In this document: piece by piece, positions 17,785 through 64,000 of the stretch | Numbering within the stretch: position 1 is the first letter of the stretch | Layout: every line of letters starts with the position of its first letter | Assembly: GCF_003334335.1 (NCBI RefSeq) | Contig: NZ_QOWQ01000012.1 | DNA: 64,000 bases | Reading direction: 5' to 3' (one strand) | Source of the DNA: Escherichia coli | GTDB lineage: Bacteria > Pseudomonadota > Gammaproteobacteria > Enterobacterales > Enterobacteriaceae | Program-made: the position numbers and the translations under genes | Notes under the pieces: generated by a model | Seen by the model: only the letters and a program-made list of their open reading frames with translations | Told to the model about the DNA's origin: nothing | The model's database searches: none

Positions 17785-17810
17785 ACGTCGCATCTGGTCA
17801 GATGCGACGT
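17785..17810. terminator. hairpin at the thiI/yajL convergent junction
   Basis: 10-bp stem ACGTCGCATC / GATGCGACGT with loop TGGTCA, flanked by T-run upstream; canonical U-tail is weak for both strands. Confidence 0.4.
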
Positions 17811-21548: not shown

Positions 21549-21574
21549 GAAAAAAGGTGCCGTAGCACCTTTTT
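21549..21574 (-). terminator. intrinsic terminator of the cyoABCDE operon
   Basis: Stem AGGTGC / GCACCT with 4-nt loop; on the minus strand it is followed by a U-run (A-run at 21551-21555), 15 nt past the cyoE stop. Confidence 0.75.
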
Positions 21575-36689: not shown

Positions 36690-39142
<2,453 letters not shown>

Positions 39143-39176
39143 TGTACTTATAACAACAACGTAAGGTTATTGCGCT

Positions 39177-50726: not shown

Positions 50727-50734
50727 GCGACGTT

Positions 50735-50758
50735 AACCCTCTCCGCCCGGAGAGGGTT
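50735..50758. terminator. hairpin at the ybaY/atl convergent junction
   Basis: Near-perfect palindrome AACCCTCTCCG-cc-CGGAGAGGGTT overlapping the atl stop codon; no clear U-tail on either strand. Confidence 0.4.
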
Positions 50759-51146
50759 AGTAGTTCCAGCGATAACGCTGCAAGTCGATTTGCCCGCTTC
50801 CCGATACCATCACACCTTCTGCCAGTAATGCCTGTCGCTGACGCTGTAAATCCGGTCCGGTTAGCGAAATTGTGCCGTGGCGATTAACCACCCGGTGCCA
50901 GGGTAAGGTGCTGCCTTCAGGGAGACGCTTTAACACACCGCCCACCTGGCGCGCGGCGCGGGGCGATCCCGCCAGTTTCGCCACATCACCGTAAGTGGTG
51001 ACATAGCCTTCGGGAATAGCGGCGACGATTTGCCAGACGCGTTGGGGAAATGAATCTTCTTTTTCCATCTTTTCTTCCTGAGGTAATTTTTCAGCATAAT
51101 CTGGAAAAACGCCCGAGTGAAGTCGCATTGCGCAAGAAACCAGCAT
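50757..51146 (-). CDS. atl: alkyltransferase-like protein (inactive O6-alkylguanine-DNA alkyltransferase homologue)
   Basis: Internal ATG gives 129 aa starting MLVSCAMRLHSGVF; motif PWHRVVN has Trp where the catalytic Cys of PCHRV sits in Ogt/Ada; formerly ybaZ. Confidence 0.9.
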   Translation of the reverse strand: MLVSCAMRLHSGVFPDYAEKLPQEEKMEKEDSFPQRVWQIVAAIPEGYVTTYGDVAKLAGSPRAARQVGGVLKRLPEGSTLPWHRVVNRHGTISLTGPDLQRQRQALLAEGVMVSGSGQIDLQRYRWNY

Positions 51147-54864: not shown

Positions 54865-55083
54865 TTAGCGAATAAATTTCCATACTGAGGAAGGGATCTT
54901 GTCGTACAGTTTATTCATGGTCAATTCGGCGAGGCGGTGATCTGCGGCTGAGTAAAATACCGCCAGTTCATTATCTGATAATTCGTATTTATTTTTCTCG
55001 ATAACACGCTCCAGCGTGTCAATTGTCTGGCAACGACGTAAACGCATTAAATAATCGGTTTTCGTTAAAGGTTTTTCGGACAT
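54865..55083 (-). CDS. hha: haemolysin expression-modulating protein Hha (H-NS co-regulator)
   Basis: Internal ATG at 55081-55083 gives 72 aa starting [27 protein letters not shown]; the supplied 154-aa ORF is an artefactual 5' extension. Confidence 0.93.
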
Positions 55084-55108
55084 ACTTCTACCTATGGTTG
55101 TAATAATT

Positions 55109-55483
55109 CTAACAAGATAAACTCGCAGGATTCTCTTTCGTCGCATTGACAAAACAACGGAATAGTCGATTACCTGACTTCCGCCATTTCTGAAGATCCT
55201 GCATATTAATACCATAACTACTGAACAACATAAAGGTGTCATCCAGATATTCGTCGATCTGCTCAATGAGCTTATTGTCTTCATTATACTTAATTTTGTA
55301 ATTAAGTGCGAAGGTCGCAATATGCTCAATCAGTTCATTCAACTGGAGGTTGATCGCCGAGGTTGGGTCGTTTACCCAGCCATGATTGCTTTCTTCAAGG
55401 TTTGCAAGGCAGTCATGATACAGGGTTTCACAGAGAAACTTAAGCTGTGCGATATCATGTCTTTTGGGTGAGTATTCATCCAT
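55109..55483 (-). CDS. tomB: Hha toxicity modulator TomB
   Basis: 124 aa; sequence recognised ([31 protein letters not shown]); directly upstream of hha; formerly ybaJ. Confidence 0.93.
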
Positions 55484-56028: not shown

Positions 56029-59181
<3,153 letters not shown>

Positions 59182-59200: not shown

Positions 59201-60394
59201 TTAAGACTTGGACTGTTCAGGCTGAGCACCGCTTGCGGCTTGCTGGTTATTATCAGCGGTAACTTCTTGTGCTTTTACCTGGACACCAGGACGCACTTTC
59301 TGCAGCCCACTTATTACTACGCGATCGCCTGCTTTCAGACCTTCTGTCACCAGCCACTTATCGCCAATAGCCTGGCTTGCAACGATCGGACGGGTTTCCA
59401 CTTTGTCATCCGCGCCAACTACCAGTACGGTGGCATCGCCACGCGGCGTACGGGTTACGCCCTGTTGCGGGACTAAAATAGCGTTTGGATTAAGCCCTTC
59501 TTCCAGACGTGCGCGCACGAACATACCCGGCAGCAGAGTGTGATCCGGGTTCGGGAAGATAGCGCGTAGGGTGATAGACCCAGTGGTCTGATCAACGGTA
59601 ACGTCAGAGAATTCCAGCGTACCGTCCTGCGGGAACTTAATGCCGTCACTGGTGATCAGTGACACTTTGGCTTTGCCGTTCTCTTGTTTCAGCGTGCCAT
59701 TCGCCAGTTCCTGTTTCAGGCGCAGGAAGTCGTTGCTGGACTGGGTCACATCAACGTAGATCGGATCAAGTTGCTGCACGGTTGCCAGCGCAGTCGCCTG
59801 ACCGTTCTGTACCAATGCGCCTTCCGTCACGTTCGACTTACCAATGCGACCGCTAATCGGAGAGGTGACTTTGGTGTAAGCCAGATTGATCCGCGCAGTT
59901 TCAACGGCAGCTTTCGCCGCAGTTACCGCAGCATTCGCCTGTTGCGCATCAGCCAGAGCCTGATCGTACTCTTGCTTACTGATGTACTGAGTACCGAGCA
60001 GTTTCTGATAACGATTCACCGTCAATTGCGCGATATTGGCTGCAGCCTGGGCTTTCGCCAGATCACCTTTCGCACTGTCGTATGTCGCCTGATAGGTCGC
60101 AGGATCAATCTGATAGAGAGAGACACCTGCTTCGATGTCGCTACCTTCTTTGAAATTACGCTTCAGGATAATCCCGCTAACTTGAGGACGAACTTCTGCG
60201 ATCCGGTAGGCACTGGTGCGACCCGGAAGCTCGGTTGTGATCTGCAGAGGTTCAGTTTTGACTGTTACTACGCCAACGGCGGGCATCTGCTGGCCACCTT
60301 GTTGGGCCTGTTTGTCGTCACATCCTGTTAGGGCTAAGCTGCCTGAGAGCATCAGAACGACCGCCAGAGGCGTAAACCCTCTGTTTTTGTTCAT
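59201..60394 (-). CDS. acrA: RND efflux periplasmic adaptor lipoprotein AcrA
   Basis: Internal ATG gives 397 aa starting MNKNRGFTPLAVVLMLSGSLALTGC with lipobox LTGC. Confidence 0.97.
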   Translation of the reverse strand: MNKNRGFTPLAVVLMLSGSLALTGCDDKQAQQGGQQMPAVGVVTVKTEPLQITTELPGRTSAYRIAEVRPQVSGIILKRNFKEGSDIEAGVSLYQIDPATYQATYDSAKGDLAKAQAAANIAQLTVNRYQKLLGTQYISKQEYDQALADAQQANAAVTAAKAAVETARINLAYTKVTSPISGRIGKSNVTEGALVQNGQATALATVQQLDPIYVDVTQSSNDFLRLKQELANGTLKQENGKAKVSLITSDGIKFPQDGTLEFSDVTVDQTTGSITLRAIFPNPDHTLLPGMFVRARLEEGLNPNAILVPQQGVTRTPRGDATVLVVGADDKVETRPIVASQAIGDKWLVTEGLKAGDRVVISGLQKVRPGVQVKAQEVTADNNQQAASGAQPEQSKS

Positions 60395-60483
60395 ATGTAA
60401 ACCTCGAGTGTCCGATTTCAAATTGGTCAATGGTCAAAAGTTAATAAACCCATTGCTGCGTTTATATTATCGTCGTGCTATGG

Positions 60484-60507
60484 TACATACATTCACAAAT
60501 GTATGTA
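60484..60507. promoter_or_regulatory. AcrR operator (24-bp perfect inverted repeat) in the acrR/acrAB divergent promoter region
   Basis: TACATACATTcacaAATGTATGTA read directly; matches the known AcrR operator palindrome; 29 bp upstream of acrR. Confidence 0.8.
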
Positions 60508-60535
60508 AATCTAACGCCTGTAAATTCACGAACAT

Positions 60536-61183
60536 ATGGCACGAAAAACCAAACAAGAAGCGCAAGAAACGCGCCAACACATCCTCGATGTGGCTCTACG
60601 TCTTTTCTCACAGCAGGGGGTATCATCCACCTCGCTGGGCGAGATTGCAAAAGCAGCTGGCGTTACGCGCGGTGCAATCTACTGGCATTTTAAAGACAAG
60701 TCGGATTTGTTCAGTGAGATCTGGGAACTGTCAGAATCCAATATTGGTGAACTAGAGCTTGAGTATCAGGCAAAATTCCCTGGCGATCCACTCTCAGTAT
60801 TAAGAGAGATATTAATTCATGTTCTTGAATCCACGGTGACAGAAGAACGGCGTCGATTATTGATGGAGATTATATTCCACAAATGCGAATTTGTCGGAGA
60901 AATGGCTGTTGTGCAACAGGCACAACGTAATCTCTGTCTGGAAAGTTATGACCGTATAGAACAAACGTTAAAACATTGTATTGAAGCGAAAATGTTGCCT
61001 GCGGATTTAATGACGCGTCGCGCAGCAATTATTATGCGCGGCTATATTTCCGGCCTGATGGAAAACTGGCTCTTTGCCCCGCAATCTTTTGATCTTAAAA
61101 AAGAAGCCCGCGATTACGTTGCCATCTTACTGGAGATGTATCTCCTGTGCCCCACGCTTCGTAATCCTGCCACTAACGAATAA
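60536..61183 (+). CDS. acrR: TetR-family repressor of acrAB
   Basis: 215 aa; N-terminal TetR HTH ([23 protein letters not shown]); divergent from acrAB. Confidence 0.96.
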
Positions 61184-61310: not shown

Positions 61311-64000
61311 ATGACTATGTTCCAGTATTACAAACGATCACGGCATTTTGTTTTTTCAGCATTTATTGCTTTTGTTTTTGTCTTGTTATGCCAGAACACG
61401 GCGTTTGCGCGGGCGTCATCGAATGGTGATCTGCCGACAAAAGCGGACCTGCAGGCGCAACTTGACTCACTAAATAAACAAAAAGATCTTTCTGCTCAGG
61501 ACAAACTGGTGCAGCAGGATCTGACAGATACATTAGCCACCCTCGATAAAATCGATCGCATAAAAGAAGAGACAGTTCAGCTACGGCAAAAAGTCGCTGA
61601 AGCGCCGGAAAAAATGCGCCAGGCGACCGCGGCGTTAACAGCACTTAGCGATGTCGATAACGACGAAGAAACGCGCAAAATTCTGAGCACGCTGTCGTTG
61701 CGCCAGCTGGAAACTCGCGTTGCCCAGGCGCTGGACGATTTGCAAAACGCACAAAACGATCTGGCGTCTTATAACAGCCAGCTGGTTTCGTTACAGACGC
61801 AGCCCGAACGCGTGCAAAATGCGATGTATAACGCTTCGCAGCAGCTGCAACAAATTCGCAGTCGTCTGGATGGGACTGATGTCGGCGAGACAGCCTTACG
61901 TCCCAGCCAGAAAGTGTTAATGCAGGCCCAGCAGGCGTTGCTGAATGCGGAGATTGACCAGCAGCGTAAAAGCCTGGAAGGGAACACCGTCTTGCAGGAT
62001 ACCTTGCAAAAGCAACGTGATTACGTGACGGCGAACAGCGCTCGTCTGGAGCACCAGTTACAACTGTTGCAAGAAGCGGTAAACAGCAAGCGCCTGACTT
62101 TAACCGAAAAAACGGCGCAGGAAGCCGTCTCCCCGGATGAAGCCGCGCGTATTCAGGCTAATCCGCTGGTGAAGCAGGAACTGGAAATTAACCAGCAGTT
62201 AAGTCAGCGTCTGATTACCGCGACTGAAAACGGTAATCAGTTGATGCAGCAAAACATTAAAGTCAAAAACTGGCTGGAGCGGGCGCTGCAATCGGAACGC
62301 AATATTAAAGAGCAGATTGCCGTCCTGAAGGGCAGCCTGCTGTTGTCTCGTATCCTTTACCAGCAACAACAAACGCTGCCCTCGGCGGATGAACTGGAAA
62401 ACATGACCAACCGCATCGCGGATTTGCGTCTCGAACAGTTTGAAGTTAACCAGCAGCGTGATGCACTCTTCCAGAGCGATGCGTTCGTCAACAAACTGGA
62501 AGAAGGTCACACCAACGAAGTCAACAGCGAAGTTCACGATGCGTTATTGCAAGTGGTTGATATGCGTCGCGAATTGCTGGATCAACTCAACAAACAGTTG
62601 GGTAACCAGCTGATGATGGCCATTAACCTGCAAATCAACCAGCAGCAGTTAATGAGTGTGTCGAAAAACCTGAAATCCATCCTGACTCAGCAAATCTTTT
62701 GGGTGAACAGTAACCGTCCAATGGACTGGGACTGGATCAAAGCGTTCCCGCAAAGCCTGAAAGATGAATTTAAGTCGATGAAAATCACGGTGAACTGGCA
62801 AAAAGCCTGGCCCGCCGTTTTTATCGCTTTCCTCGCTGGTTTGCCGCTGCTGTTGATTGCCGGGCTGATCCACTGGCGTCTGGGCTGGCTGAAAGCGTAT
62901 CAACAAAAACTGGCTTCCGCTGTGGGTTCCCTGCGTAACGACAGCCAGCTCAACACACCAAAAGCGATCCTTATCGACCTGATCCGTGCGCTGCCGGTGT
63001 GCCTGATTATTCTCGCGGTTGGCCTGATTCTGTTGACCATGCAGCTCAACATCAGCGAACTGCTATGGTCGTTCAGCAAAAAACTGGCGATATTCTGGCT
63101 GGTGTTTGGCCTGTGCTGGAAGGTACTGGAGAAAAACGGCGTTGCCGTACGTCACTTCGGCATGCCGGAACAGCAGACCAGCCACTGGCGTCGGCAAATT
63201 GTCCGCATCAGTCTCGCATTGCTGCCTATCCATTTCTGGTCTGTGGTGGCAGAACTTTCCCCGCTGCATCTGATGGATGATGTGCTGGGGCAAGCGATGA
63301 TTTTCTTCAACCTGCTGCTGATTGCCTTCCTGGTATGGCCGATGTGCCGCGAAAGCTGGCGTGATAAAGAGTCGCACACCATGCGACTGGTCACCATTAC
63401 CGTGCTGTCGATAATCCCGATTGCGCTGATGGTGCTGACTGCTACAGGCTACTTCTACACTACGCTGCGTCTGGCAGGACGCTGGATTGAAACCGTTTAT
63501 CTGGTGATCATCTGGAACCTGCTGTACCAGACGGTACTGCGTGGCTTAAGCGTAGCGGCGCGGCGTATCGCCTGGCGTCGTGCGCTGGCGCGTCGGCAGA
63601 ATCTGGTGAAAGAGGGCGCAGAAGGTGCTGAACCGCCGGAAGAACCCACCATTGCACTGGAGCAAGTTAACCAGCAGACGCTGCGTATTACCATGTTGCT
63701 GATGTTTGCGCTGTTCGGTGTCATGTTCTGGGCAATTTGGTCCGATTTGATCACCGTGTTCAGCTATCTCGACAGCATCACGCTCTGGCATTACAACGGC
63801 ACTGAAGCTGGCGCTGCGGTGGTGAAAAACGTCACCATGGGCAGTCTGTTGTTTGCGATTATCGCCTCAATGGTGGCCTGGGCGTTGATTCGCAACCTGC
63901 CTGGTTTACTGGAAGTGCTGGTGCTCTCGCGACTGAATATGCGCCAGGGCGCGTCGTATGCCATTACTACCATCCTTAACTACATCATTATTGCTGTTGG
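61311..64000 (+). CDS. mscK: potassium-dependent mechanosensitive channel MscK, 3' end truncated by window edge
   Basis: Frame open from the ATG at 61311 (MTMFQYYKRSRHFVFSAFIAFVFVLL) to the window end (about 896 codons); signal peptide, long coiled-coil periplasmic domain, then TM helices. Absent from the supplied ORF list because no stop lies in the window. Confidence 0.93.
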   Translation, partial: MTMFQYYKRSRHFVFSAFIAFVFVLLCQNTAFARASSNGDLPTKADLQAQLDSLNKQKDLSAQDKLVQQDLTDTLATLDKIDRIKEETVQLRQKVAEAPEKMRQATAALTALSDVDNDEETRKILSTLSLRQLETRVAQALDDLQNAQNDLASYNSQLVSLQTQPERVQNAMYNASQQLQQIRSRLDGTDVGETALRPSQKVLMQAQQALLNAEIDQQRKSLEGNTVLQDTLQKQRDYVTANSARLEHQLQLLQEAVNSKRLTLTEKTAQEAVSPDEAARIQANPLVKQELEINQQLSQRLITATENGNQLMQQNIKVKNWLERALQSERNIKEQIAVLKGSLLLSRILYQQQQTLPSADELENMTNRIADLRLEQFEVNQQRDALFQSDAFVNKLEEGHTNEVNSEVHDALLQVVDMRRELLDQLNKQLGNQLMMAINLQINQQQLMSVSKNLKSILTQQIFWVNSNRPMDWDWIKAFPQSLKDEFKSMKITVNWQKAWPAVFIAFLAGLPLLLIAGLIHWRLGWLKAYQQKLASAVGSLRNDSQLNTPKAILIDLIRALPVCLIILAVGLILLTMQLNISELLWSFSKKLAIFWLVFGLCWKVLEKNGVAVRHFGMPEQQTSHWRRQIVRISLALLPIHFWSVVAELSPLHLMDDVLGQAMIFFNLLLIAFLVWPMCRESWRDKESHTMRLVTITVLSIIPIALMVLTATGYFYTTLRLAGRWIETVYLVIIWNLLYQTVLRGLSVAARRIAWRRALARRQNLVKEGAEGAEPPEEPTIALEQVNQQTLRITMLLMFALFGVMFWAIWSDLITVFSYLDSITLWHYNGTEAGAAVVKNVTMGSLLFAIIASMVAWALIRNLPGLLEVLVLSRLNMRQGASYAITTILNYIIIAV

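What the first reader, a model, noticed from the sequence alone, without database searches (positions are those of the whole stretch)
60395..60535. acrR/acrAB divergent region contains a 24-bp perfect dyad matching the AcrR operator
TACATACATTcacaAATGTATGTA (60484-60507) sits 29 bp upstream of acrR and about 113 bp upstream of acrA. It is the expected local repressor site for this efflux locus. Activator (MarA/SoxS/Rob) marbox sequences should lie nearby but I cannot place them confidently by eye.
Basis: partly seen in the sequence, partly recalled or inferred. Interest (0 to 1): 0.25.

Follow-up and report, generated by a model that had tools for sequence, protein, structure and literature searches.

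The report
Known AcrR operator at acrAB promoter
The 24-bp inverted repeat between acrR and acrA is the already published binding site of the AcrR repressor of the main E. coli multidrug efflux pump, so the finding is correct but ordinary.

Summary
Window 60484-60507 reads TACATACATT-CACA-AATGTATGTA: two perfectly complementary 10-nt arms around a non-palindromic 4-nt spacer. It is unique in the window and absent from all shuffles.

This part of the window is identical to E. coli K-12 MG1655, where the dyad lies at 485709-485732. The sequence is letter for letter the published 24-bp AcrR-binding site of the acrAB promoter.

The dyad fills the gap between the -35 (TTTACA) and -10 (TACCAT) of the acrA promoter. 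It also covers the shared -10 and the start site of the divergent acrR promoter. This explains why AcrR represses both transcripts.

In 88 AcrR loci from other Enterobacterales species, found through an anchor outside the site, the arms are nearly invariant, the spacer varies, and the position relative to the acrR ATG is fixed.

It is the only perfect consensus match in 64 kb, its synonymous sites are frozen across species, and published genetics shows it is required.

Everything here is already described. Novelty: already known. Interest: low.

The parts
60484..60507 (.). AcrR operator: 10-nt arms TACATACATT (60484-60493) and AATGTATGTA (60498-60507) around the spacer CACA. MG1655 coordinates 485709-485732.
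   Evidence: sequence, symmetry, uniqueness. (identical to the published 24-bp AcrR site). (arms perfect in 62 of 88 orthologous loci and one mismatch in 23; arm entropy 0.088 bit against 0.70 for the spacer). (exact in at least 5364 of 5426 complete E. coli genomes).
60504..60509 (-). acrA promoter -35 hexamer TTTACA. Four of its six bases lie inside the right arm of the dyad.
   Evidence: Promoter scan. The 'acrA down' mutation of Warman et al. 2026 changes exactly these bases and abolishes SoxS activation.
60479..60485 (.). Shared -10 region of the bidirectional promoter: TACCAT on the minus strand (60485-60480, acrA) and TATGGT on the plus strand (60479-60484, acrR). It overlaps the first one or two bases of the left arm of the dyad.
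   Evidence: minus-strand hexamer, 18-nt spacer. (bidirectional promoter with shared -10, sequence in Table S2). (85-100% conserved). (the shared -10 region is retained in the 12 species displayed, and reads TATAAT in Budvicia and Leminorella).
60456..60461 (+). acrR promoter -35 hexamer CTGCGT, a weak element 17 nt upstream of TATGGT.
   Evidence: The 'acrR up' mutant of Warman et al. replaces these six bases with TTGACA.
60473..60473 (-). acrA transcription start (MG1655 485698). The dyad then spans -34 to -11.
   Evidence: Inferred from the formatting marks in Table S2 of Warman et al., whose start sites come from cappable-seq, and from lying 7 nt after the -10. It matches my recollection of RegulonDB, which I did not check here.
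60491..60491 (+). acrR transcription start, 18 bp from the acrA start. The dyad then spans about -8 to +17.
   Evidence: Inferred from the same Table S2 marks and from lying 7 nt after TATGGT. The paper states that divergent starts at its five promoters are 10-23 bp apart.
60536..60555 (+). Marbox (MarA/SoxS/Rob site) ATGGCACGAAAAACCAAACA, which is acrR codons 1-7. It lies at -63 to -82 of the acrA promoter and reads opposite to acrA transcription.
   Evidence: Only perfect match to AYNGCACNNWNNRYYAAAYN in the window, 0.10 expected. It also fits the revised consensus quoted. The literature places it in the first 20 nt of acrR and shows it is genetically required. SoxS and MarA activate acrA from this promoter in vitro. 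Third codon positions of codons 2-6 have entropy 0.21 bit against 1.49 bit for codons 8-30 in 84 sequences.
60536..61183 (+). acrR coding sequence (215 aa, TetR-family repressor).
   Evidence: NCBIfam AcrR equivalog 419 bits against a cutoff of 271. Full-length match to PDB 2qop/3bcg AcrR. MG1655 b0464.
59201..60394 (-). acrA coding sequence (397 aa). acrB follows at 56029-59178 on the minus strand.
   Evidence: NCBIfam AcrA equivalog 885 bits. MG1655 b0463.

Best explanation
This is the operator of AcrR, the local TetR-family repressor of the acrAB multidrug efflux operon of E. coli.

AcrR dimers recognise the two 10-bp half-sites. The literature proposes two dimers on opposite faces of the DNA. 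The site occupies the spacer between the -35 and -10 of the acrA promoter, clipping both hexamers. It also covers the shared -10 and the start point of the divergent acrR promoter. Bound AcrR therefore keeps RNA polymerase off in both orientations and represses acrAB and its own gene.

Ligands such as ethidium and polyamines bind the C-terminal domain and release AcrR from the DNA. Independently, MarA, SoxS or Rob bind the marbox 28 bp further upstream, inside the first 20 nt of acrR, and activate acrA. Strong activation lowers acrR transcription through polymerase competition.

Shown here: sequence identity to the published site, its geometry relative to the promoter elements, and its conservation. 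Taken from papers: binding, repression of both RNAs, and ligand release. Inferred: the exact protein-DNA contacts and the stoichiometry.
For: - The sequence is identical to the published 24-bp AcrR site.
- The neighbouring genes are AcrR and AcrA by equivalog models, and this stretch of the window equals MG1655 exactly.
- The dyad spans -34 to -11 of the acrA promoter and about -8 to +17 of the acrR promoter.
- Purified AcrR shifts the acrAB promoter fragment but not gapA. Ethidium, putrescine and cadaverine prevent the shift and induce acrABp-lacZ only when acrR is present.
- AcrR represses both divergent RNAs in vitro.
- In 88 orthologous loci found through an anchor in acrR codons 11-19, not through the site itself, the arms are perfect in 62 and have one mismatch in 23. 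The spacer takes 10 different forms. The dyad ends 27-29 nt before the ATG in 86 loci.
- The dyad is exact and single-copy in at least 5364 of 5426 complete E. coli genomes.
Against: - The primary binding study (Su et al. 2007) and the AcrR structure paper could not be read. Binding to the dyad itself, rather than to a promoter fragment containing it, rests on secondary citations and on my memory of that paper.
- The PDB holds only DNA-free AcrR (2qop, 3bcg, 3lhq), so the two-dimer model is unverified.
- Both arms overlap promoter hexamers, so part of their conservation could come from promoter function.
- Deleting acrR left the chloramphenicol and novobiocin MICs unchanged, and the tetracycline MIC was 0.25 against 0.5 ug/ml. 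This fits a modulating repressor rather than a tight one.
Confidence: 0.95

Rival explanations
1. The symmetry and conservation come from the bidirectional promoter itself, since such promoters are pseudo-symmetric. On this view the dyad is promoter core rather than a repressor site.
For: PacrA/acrR is a bidirectional promoter with a shared -10. The dyad arms overlap the acrA -35 and the shared -10.
Against: The symmetry centre of the promoter is the shared -10, around 60482. The dyad centre is 60495.5, about 13 bp away, so it lies inside the acrA spacer and is not mirrored on the acrR side. The dyad arms fill most of the 18-bp stretch between the acrA hexamers, yet the arm bases are nearly invariant, at 0.088 bit. 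AcrR represses both RNAs in vitro, and purified AcrR shifts this promoter.
Confidence: 0.03
2. The inverted repeat acts as a nucleic-acid structure, either an RNA hairpin (terminator, attenuator or stability element) or a DNA cruciform, rather than as a protein site.
For: As single-stranded DNA it folds to -7.4 kcal/mol with a z-score of -4.8 against shuffles.
Against: Neither transcript contains the whole dyad. The acrA start (60473) is downstream of it, and the acrR start (60491) lies inside the left arm. No T-run follows it, and the terminator scan did not call it. In all 26 loci with arm changes, every change breaks complementarity and none is compensated. This is the opposite of what a selected stem shows.
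Confidence: 0.01
3. The dyad is mainly the site of a different regulator. A candidate is the paralogue EnvR (AcrS), which I recall being reported to repress acrAB. On this view AcrR would be secondary.
For: AcrR scores 179 bits against the EnvR family model, so the DNA-binding domains are related. The report that AcrS represses acrAB is from my memory; the paper was not held.
Against: Every paper read attributes the site to AcrR and shows AcrR-dependent shifts and induction. The site co-occurs with acrR in 88 species at a fixed distance. The envR-acrE intergenic region of MG1655 has no similar dyad, with 7 arm mismatches at best.
Confidence: 0.01

Closest known systems
[quoted passage not shown]
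   Same: Identical 24-bp sequence, the same locus, the same 141-bp divergent region, and the same 10-4-10 architecture.
   Different: Nothing; this is the site itself.
QacR operator IR1 of Staphylococcus aureus qacA (TetR family; comparison from my own knowledge)
   Same: A long inverted repeat overlapping the promoter of an efflux gene. It is bound by two dimers of a TetR-family repressor and released by cationic drugs. This is the model proposed for AcrR.
   Different: The sequence and half-site spacing are unrelated. qacR is not autoregulated through a shared bidirectional -10. QacR has a co-crystal with DNA, whereas AcrR has none in the PDB.
TetR/tetO in the tetR-tetA divergent region (comparison from my own knowledge)
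   Same: A TetR-family repressor encoded divergently from the efflux gene. Palindromic operators overlap both promoters, so one protein controls both directions, with release by ligand.
   Different: tetO is a 15-bp palindrome bound by one dimer, and there are two operators. Here there is a single 24-bp site, and an activator site (the marbox) is layered on top.
Operators of TtgR (Pseudomonas putida) and MtrR (Neisseria), the closest AcrR homologues among solved structures
   Same: These are the closest solved AcrR homologues: local repressors of RND efflux operons, with E-values of 1e-44 and 1e-32 to AcrR.
   Different: Their operator sequences were not compared here. They come from different genera and have no embedded marbox.
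Marboxes of the mar/sox/rob regulon placed upstream of the -35 ('class I', Martin et al. 1999; class definitions from memory)
   Same: The 20-bp asymmetric consensus is matched perfectly. The site lies upstream of the -35, reads opposite to transcription, and is activated by MarA, SoxS and Rob.
   Different: It lies inside the coding sequence of the divergent repressor gene, so acrR deletions that remove it change the phenotype.

Membership tests
AcrR operator of the acrAB promoter | Sequence equals the published 24-bp site TACATACATTTGTGAATGTATGTA or its reverse complement | tested here: met
   Exact match at 60484-60507. The published sequences are quoted.
AcrR operator of the acrAB promoter | Lies in the divergent region between a gene for AcrR (TetR family) and acrAB | tested here: met
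   NCBIfam equivalogs for AcrR (419 bits, cutoff 271) and AcrA (885 bits, cutoff 765). MG1655 annotation b0463/b0464 and exact identity of the window stretch to MG1655.
AcrR operator of the acrAB promoter | Overlaps the core promoter(s) it represses | tested here: met
   The dyad spans -34 to -11 of acrA and about -8 to +17 of acrR, using the promoter elements and the coordinates. The start-site positions are my reading of marks in a supplementary table.
AcrR operator of the acrAB promoter | Bound directly by purified AcrR, with repression of transcription | not testable with these tools
   From the literature only. Gel shifts on acrAB promoter fragments and repression of both RNAs in vitro. 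The paper testing the short duplex was not held.
AcrR operator of the acrAB promoter | Binding relieved by AcrR ligands | not testable with these tools
   From the literature only. Ethidium, putrescine and cadaverine prevent the shift and induce acrABp only in acrR+ cells.
AcrR operator of the acrAB promoter | Conserved with orthologous acrR-acrA loci: half-sites constrained, spacer free | tested here: met
   88 loci found by an anchor outside the site. Arms perfect in 62 and one mismatch in 23; 10 spacer variants; entropy 0.088 bit for the arms against 0.70 for the spacer.
Marbox (MarA/SoxS/Rob binding site) | Matches the 20-bp consensus AYNGCACNNWNNRYYAAAYN | tested here: met
   60536-60554(55) has 0 mismatches. 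It is the only match in 64 kb, with 0.10 expected. By my position-by-position comparison it also fits the revised consensus quoted.
Marbox (MarA/SoxS/Rob binding site) | Placed upstream of the -35 in the orientation opposite to transcription (class I geometry) | tested here: met
   It lies at -63 to -82 of acrA, 26 bp beyond the -35, and the consensus reads on the strand opposite to acrA. The definition of the class is from memory of Martin et al. 1999, which I did not read.
Marbox (MarA/SoxS/Rob binding site) | [quoted passage not shown] | not testable with these tools
   From the literature. Keeping only the first 21 nt of acrR restores psoralen resistance to an acrR deletion, and the resistance needs one of the three activators. 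SoxS and MarA activate acrA in vitro.
Marbox (MarA/SoxS/Rob binding site) | Constraint beyond the protein code where it overlaps a gene | tested here: met
   Third codon positions of acrR codons 2-6 have entropy 0.21 bit against 1.49 bit for codons 8-30 in 84 non-identical sequences.
Bidirectional promoter with shared -10 (Warman/Grainger) | Overlapping -10 hexamers on opposite strands with divergent start sites about 18 bp apart | tested here: met
   TATGGT (+, 60479-60484) and TACCAT (-, 60485-60480). The inferred starts 60491 and 60473 are 18 bp apart.

The most novel reading that the evidence does not exclude
The length of the linker between the dyad and the marbox is conserved: 28 nt in 76 of 88 species, 27-29 nt in 86, and 38 nt (one helical turn more) in the two Budviciaceae. 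Its sequence, however, includes the least conserved intergenic positions. It also holds a degenerate repeat of the operator (60517-60540, 10 mismatches) reaching into the marbox.

One reading not excluded is that a second, weak AcrR contact there lets AcrR and MarA/SoxS/Rob compete or communicate directly, beyond the polymerase competition already described. The simpler explanation is the known need for a fixed helical phase between a marbox and the -35. In addition, sites with 10 mismatches occur 44 times in this window by chance.
Probability: 0.04. Interest if true: 0.3.

Novelty: already known. Interest (0 to 1): 0.07.

Why it matters
AcrAB-TolC is the main multidrug efflux pump of E. coli and its relatives, and this roughly 100-bp control region sets its expression. 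Mutations in acrR or in this region are a common route to clinical resistance.

Nothing new is learned about the operator itself. The useful by-products are:
- A precise map in window coordinates of how the operator, the bidirectional promoter and the coding-embedded marbox interlock.
- A cross-species confirmation, independent of the site, that each element is under selection.
- A reminder that acrR deletions which remove the first 20 nt also remove the activator site.

Tried and rejected
1. Four primary papers were not held: Su et al. 2007 (PMC2104644), Li et al. 2007 (PMC2254304), Martin & Rosner 2011 (PMC3019838) and Hirakawa et al. 2008. The details of the original binding assay and of the marbox classes therefore rest on secondary citations or memory.

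2. The promoter scan gave plus-strand candidates TTAATA-16/18-TATATT/TATTAT at 60441-60470. I first took these for the acrR promoter. I rejected them in favour of CTGCGT/TATGGT, which mutational and in vitro transcription data support. The TTAATA hexamer is also poorly conserved, at 6-73%.

3. I tested whether the acrA 5' leader (60380-60473, minus strand) has a significant RNA structure. The energy was -11.5 kcal/mol with a z-score of -0.49, which is not distinguishable from shuffles.

4. I looked for an AcrR-like dyad in the paralogous envR-acrE region of MG1655. There is none with 3 mismatches or fewer, and the best has 7 arm mismatches.

5. I looked for further AcrR sites in the window. 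There are none with 3 mismatches or fewer. At the looser thresholds used in some papers (9-12 mismatches of 24), such hits are at chance level: 44 sites at 10 or fewer and 191 at 11 or fewer in 64 kb.

6. I checked the PDB for an AcrR-DNA complex and found none.

Full report
**1. What is in the sequence**

Window 60484-60507 reads TACATACATTCACAAATGTATGTA. The repeat finder reports two 10-nt arms, 60484-60493 and 60498-60507, that are 100% complementary and separated by 4 nt.

The spacer CACA is not self-complementary, so the symmetry covers 20 of the 24 positions. The pattern with a free 4-nt spacer occurs once in the 64-kb window even with three mismatches allowed, and in none of 100 dinucleotide-preserving shuffles.

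Perfect inverted repeats with 10-nt arms and a spacer of 10 nt or less are expected 0.71 times per shuffled window. The window has seven such loci. The other six are much more G+C-rich stems, and this is the only A+T-rich one.

- 28 nt lie between the dyad and the acrR ATG at 60536.
- 89 nt lie between the acrA ATG at 60394 and the near edge of the dyad, and 113 to the far edge.
- The ORF listing extends acrA to an upstream TTG at 60430. The annotated start is the ATG at 60394.

**2. Where the window comes from**

Window 60175-60775 is identical to E. coli K-12 MG1655 485400-486000, an offset of 425225. The dyad is therefore MG1655 485709-485732.

The flanking genes are acrA (b0463) with acrB on the minus strand, and acrR (b0464) on the plus strand. 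NCBIfam equivalog models confirm this: AcrR scores 419 bits against a cutoff of 271, and AcrA 885 bits against 765. AcrR also matches the full length of the PDB entries 2qop and 3bcg.

A 351-bp stretch around the site is present at 99% identity or more in 5419 records, out of the 5424 of 5426 complete E. coli genomes that have a match. The 44-bp core containing the dyad is exact and single-copy in at least 5364 of them.

**3. What the literature says about the dyad**

[quoted passage not shown] One of them also gives its reverse complement, 5'-TACATACATTCACAAATGTATGTA. They describe it as two 10-bp inverted repeats separated by 4 bp and cite Su, Rutherford & Yu 2007. The window's plus strand is the second form, letter for letter.

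These papers report the following:
- Purified AcrR shifts the acrAB promoter fragment but not gapA.
- Ethidium, putrescine and cadaverine prevent the shift.
- These ligands induce an acrABp-lacZ fusion only when acrR is present.
- acrR lies 141 bp from acrAB and is transcribed divergently.

AcrR is suggested to bind as a dimer of dimers. I could not read the primary paper. The PDB holds only DNA-free AcrR. The stoichiometry and the contacts therefore remain a model.

**4. Geometry relative to the promoters**

The consensus scan finds one minus-strand promoter: TTTACA (60509-60504), an 18-nt spacer, then TACCAT (60485-60480).

Warman et al. (NAR 2026, PMC12825309) treat PacrA/acrR as a bidirectional promoter with a shared -10 and divergent start sites mapped by cappable-seq. 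Their Table S2 prints window 60456-60509:
- The 'acrA down' mutant replaces TGTAAA at 60504-60509.
- The 'acrR up' mutant replaces CTGCGT at 60456-60461 with TTGACA.

This fixes the acrA -35 at 60509-60504 and the acrR -35 at 60456-60461. The shared -10 is TATGGT on the plus strand (60479-60484) and TACCAT on the minus strand (60485-60480).

I read the formatting marks in that table as start sites: 60473 for acrA and 60491 for acrR, 18 bp apart. Each lies 7 nt beyond its -10. This reading is an inference.

On it, the dyad spans -34 to -11 of the acrA promoter. It fills the spacer and clips 4 bp of the -35 and 2 bp of the -10. It also spans about -8 to +17 of the acrR promoter.

One operator therefore blocks polymerase in both orientations. 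This agrees with the in vitro result that AcrR represses both RNAs.

**5. Independent evidence from other species**

To avoid circularity, I scanned one genome per species with a degenerate DNA pattern for acrR codons 11-19 (ETRQHILD), which lies outside both sites. Of 120 loci, 90 begin with an AcrR-like N-terminus, and 88 have enough upstream sequence. They span genera including Escherichia, Salmonella, Klebsiella, Enterobacter, Citrobacter, Serratia, Yersinia, Rahnella, Sodalis, Budvicia and Leminorella.

Results for the dyad:
- The arms are identical to those of E. coli in 62 loci, differ at one base in 23, and at two or more in 3.
- The spacer takes ten different forms (CACA 36, CATA 32, CGCG 7, and others).
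- The dyad ends 27-29 nt before the acrR ATG in 86 loci.
- Mean column entropy is 0.088 bit in the arms, 0.70 in the spacer, and 0.57 in the rest of the intergenic region.
- Every arm change breaks the symmetry, and none is compensated.

This is the pattern expected of protein-contacted half-sites rather than of a selected stem. One caveat is that both arms overlap promoter hexamers, so some of the constraint may be promoter constraint.

**6. The marbox**

The only perfect match to AYNGCACNNWNNRYYAAAYN in the window is ATGGCACGAAAAACCAAAC at 60536-60554, with 0.10 matches expected by chance. By my position-by-position comparison it also fits the revised consensus quoted.

Worley et al. (PMC11642870) state that the first 20 nt of acrR are the marbox for MarA, SoxS and Rob. 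They show that an acrR deletion gives psoralen resistance only if these nucleotides are kept, and only if one of the three activators is present. Warman et al. show that SoxS, and more weakly MarA, activates acrA in vitro. Strong activation shuts off acrR through polymerase competition rather than by a roadblock.

Relative to the acrA start, the marbox lies at -63 to -82 and reads opposite to acrA transcription. From my memory of Martin et al. 1999, this is the class I arrangement.

Because it is coding sequence, plain conservation says little, but the synonymous positions are informative. In 84 non-identical sequences, the third positions of codons 2-6 have a mean entropy of 0.21 bit, against 1.49 bit for codons 8-30. 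The 20-mer meets the consensus without mismatch in 78 of 88 loci.

**7. Rival explanations**

- *A structure-forming hairpin.* The DNA fold is -7.4 kcal/mol with a z-score of -4.8. However, neither transcript contains both arms, no T-run follows, and no covariation is seen.
- *Promoter symmetry alone.* The centre of the dyad (60495.5) is about 13 bp from the centre of the shared -10, and AcrR-dependent effects are documented.
- *A different regulator such as EnvR.* No paper I read supports this. The envR-acrE region has no similar dyad.

**8. Verdict**

The element is the already described AcrR operator, embedded in an already described bidirectional promoter, with an already described marbox 28 bp away inside acrR.

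Novelty is 'already known' and interest is low. The only residual openings are the lack of an AcrR-DNA structure and the conserved length but free sequence of the linker between the two sites. The known phase requirement of marbox activation probably explains the linker.

Noticed in passing
window about 60514-60515 (query position 215); hit H12, NZ_CP148461.1: In E. coli strain Z1323CEC0008 the match to this region stops about 7 bp beyond the dyad, next to an IS481-family transposase. An insertion there would separate the acrA promoter from the marbox and acrR from its promoter.
   Followed up: no
window 60395-60434 (acrA 5' leader, minus strand): The 40 nt just upstream of the acrA ATG are mostly 90-100% conserved across 84 Enterobacterales sequences. 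They contain TCGGA (60416-60412 on the minus strand), the motif reported as a secondary CsrA site in the Salmonella acrAB leader. The predicted leader structure is no better than shuffles.
   Followed up: partly
window 60517-60540 (+), and window-wide: A degenerate copy of the operator lies 33 bp from the real one and reaches into the marbox (direct repeat D1; 10 of 24 mismatches). The window holds 44 sites with 10 mismatches or fewer and 191 with 11 or fewer. 'Predicted AcrR sites' with 9-12 mismatches, as used in some papers, are therefore at chance frequency.
   Followed up: partly
L041 (Budvicia aquatica) and L067 (Leminorella grimontii), upstream of acrR: In these two Budviciaceae the dyad ends 38 nt before the ATG, one helical turn more than the usual 28. 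The shared -10 reads TATAAT. No marbox with 2 mismatches or fewer is found at or near the ATG. By my own count, a GCAC...AAA sequence with 3 mismatches lies in the longer linker.
   Followed up: partly
L122 (MG1655 3412600-3414100) 986-1005: The envR-acrE intergenic region, paralogous to acrR-acrA, has no AcrR-like dyad. It carries its own perfect A+T-rich palindrome TAAATAATATATATTATTTA.
   Followed up: partly
window 5871-5897, 17785-17810, 21551-21574, 39119-39143, 50734-50759, 62211-62240: These are the six other perfect inverted repeats with 10-nt or longer arms. They are much more G+C-rich than the acrR-acrA dyad, and some are flanked by A or T runs, so they may be terminator hairpins.
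   Followed up: no
window 60394 vs 60430 (minus strand): The mechanical ORF list starts acrA at an upstream in-frame TTG (409 aa). The annotated start is the ATG at 60394 (397 aa). Anyone using the ORF list would wrongly shrink the intergenic region to 105 bp.
   Followed up: yes
window 54865-55483 (minus strand): Downstream of acrB are two small ORFs whose translations I recognise from memory as Hha and TomB. They were not checked with any tool.
   Followed up: no
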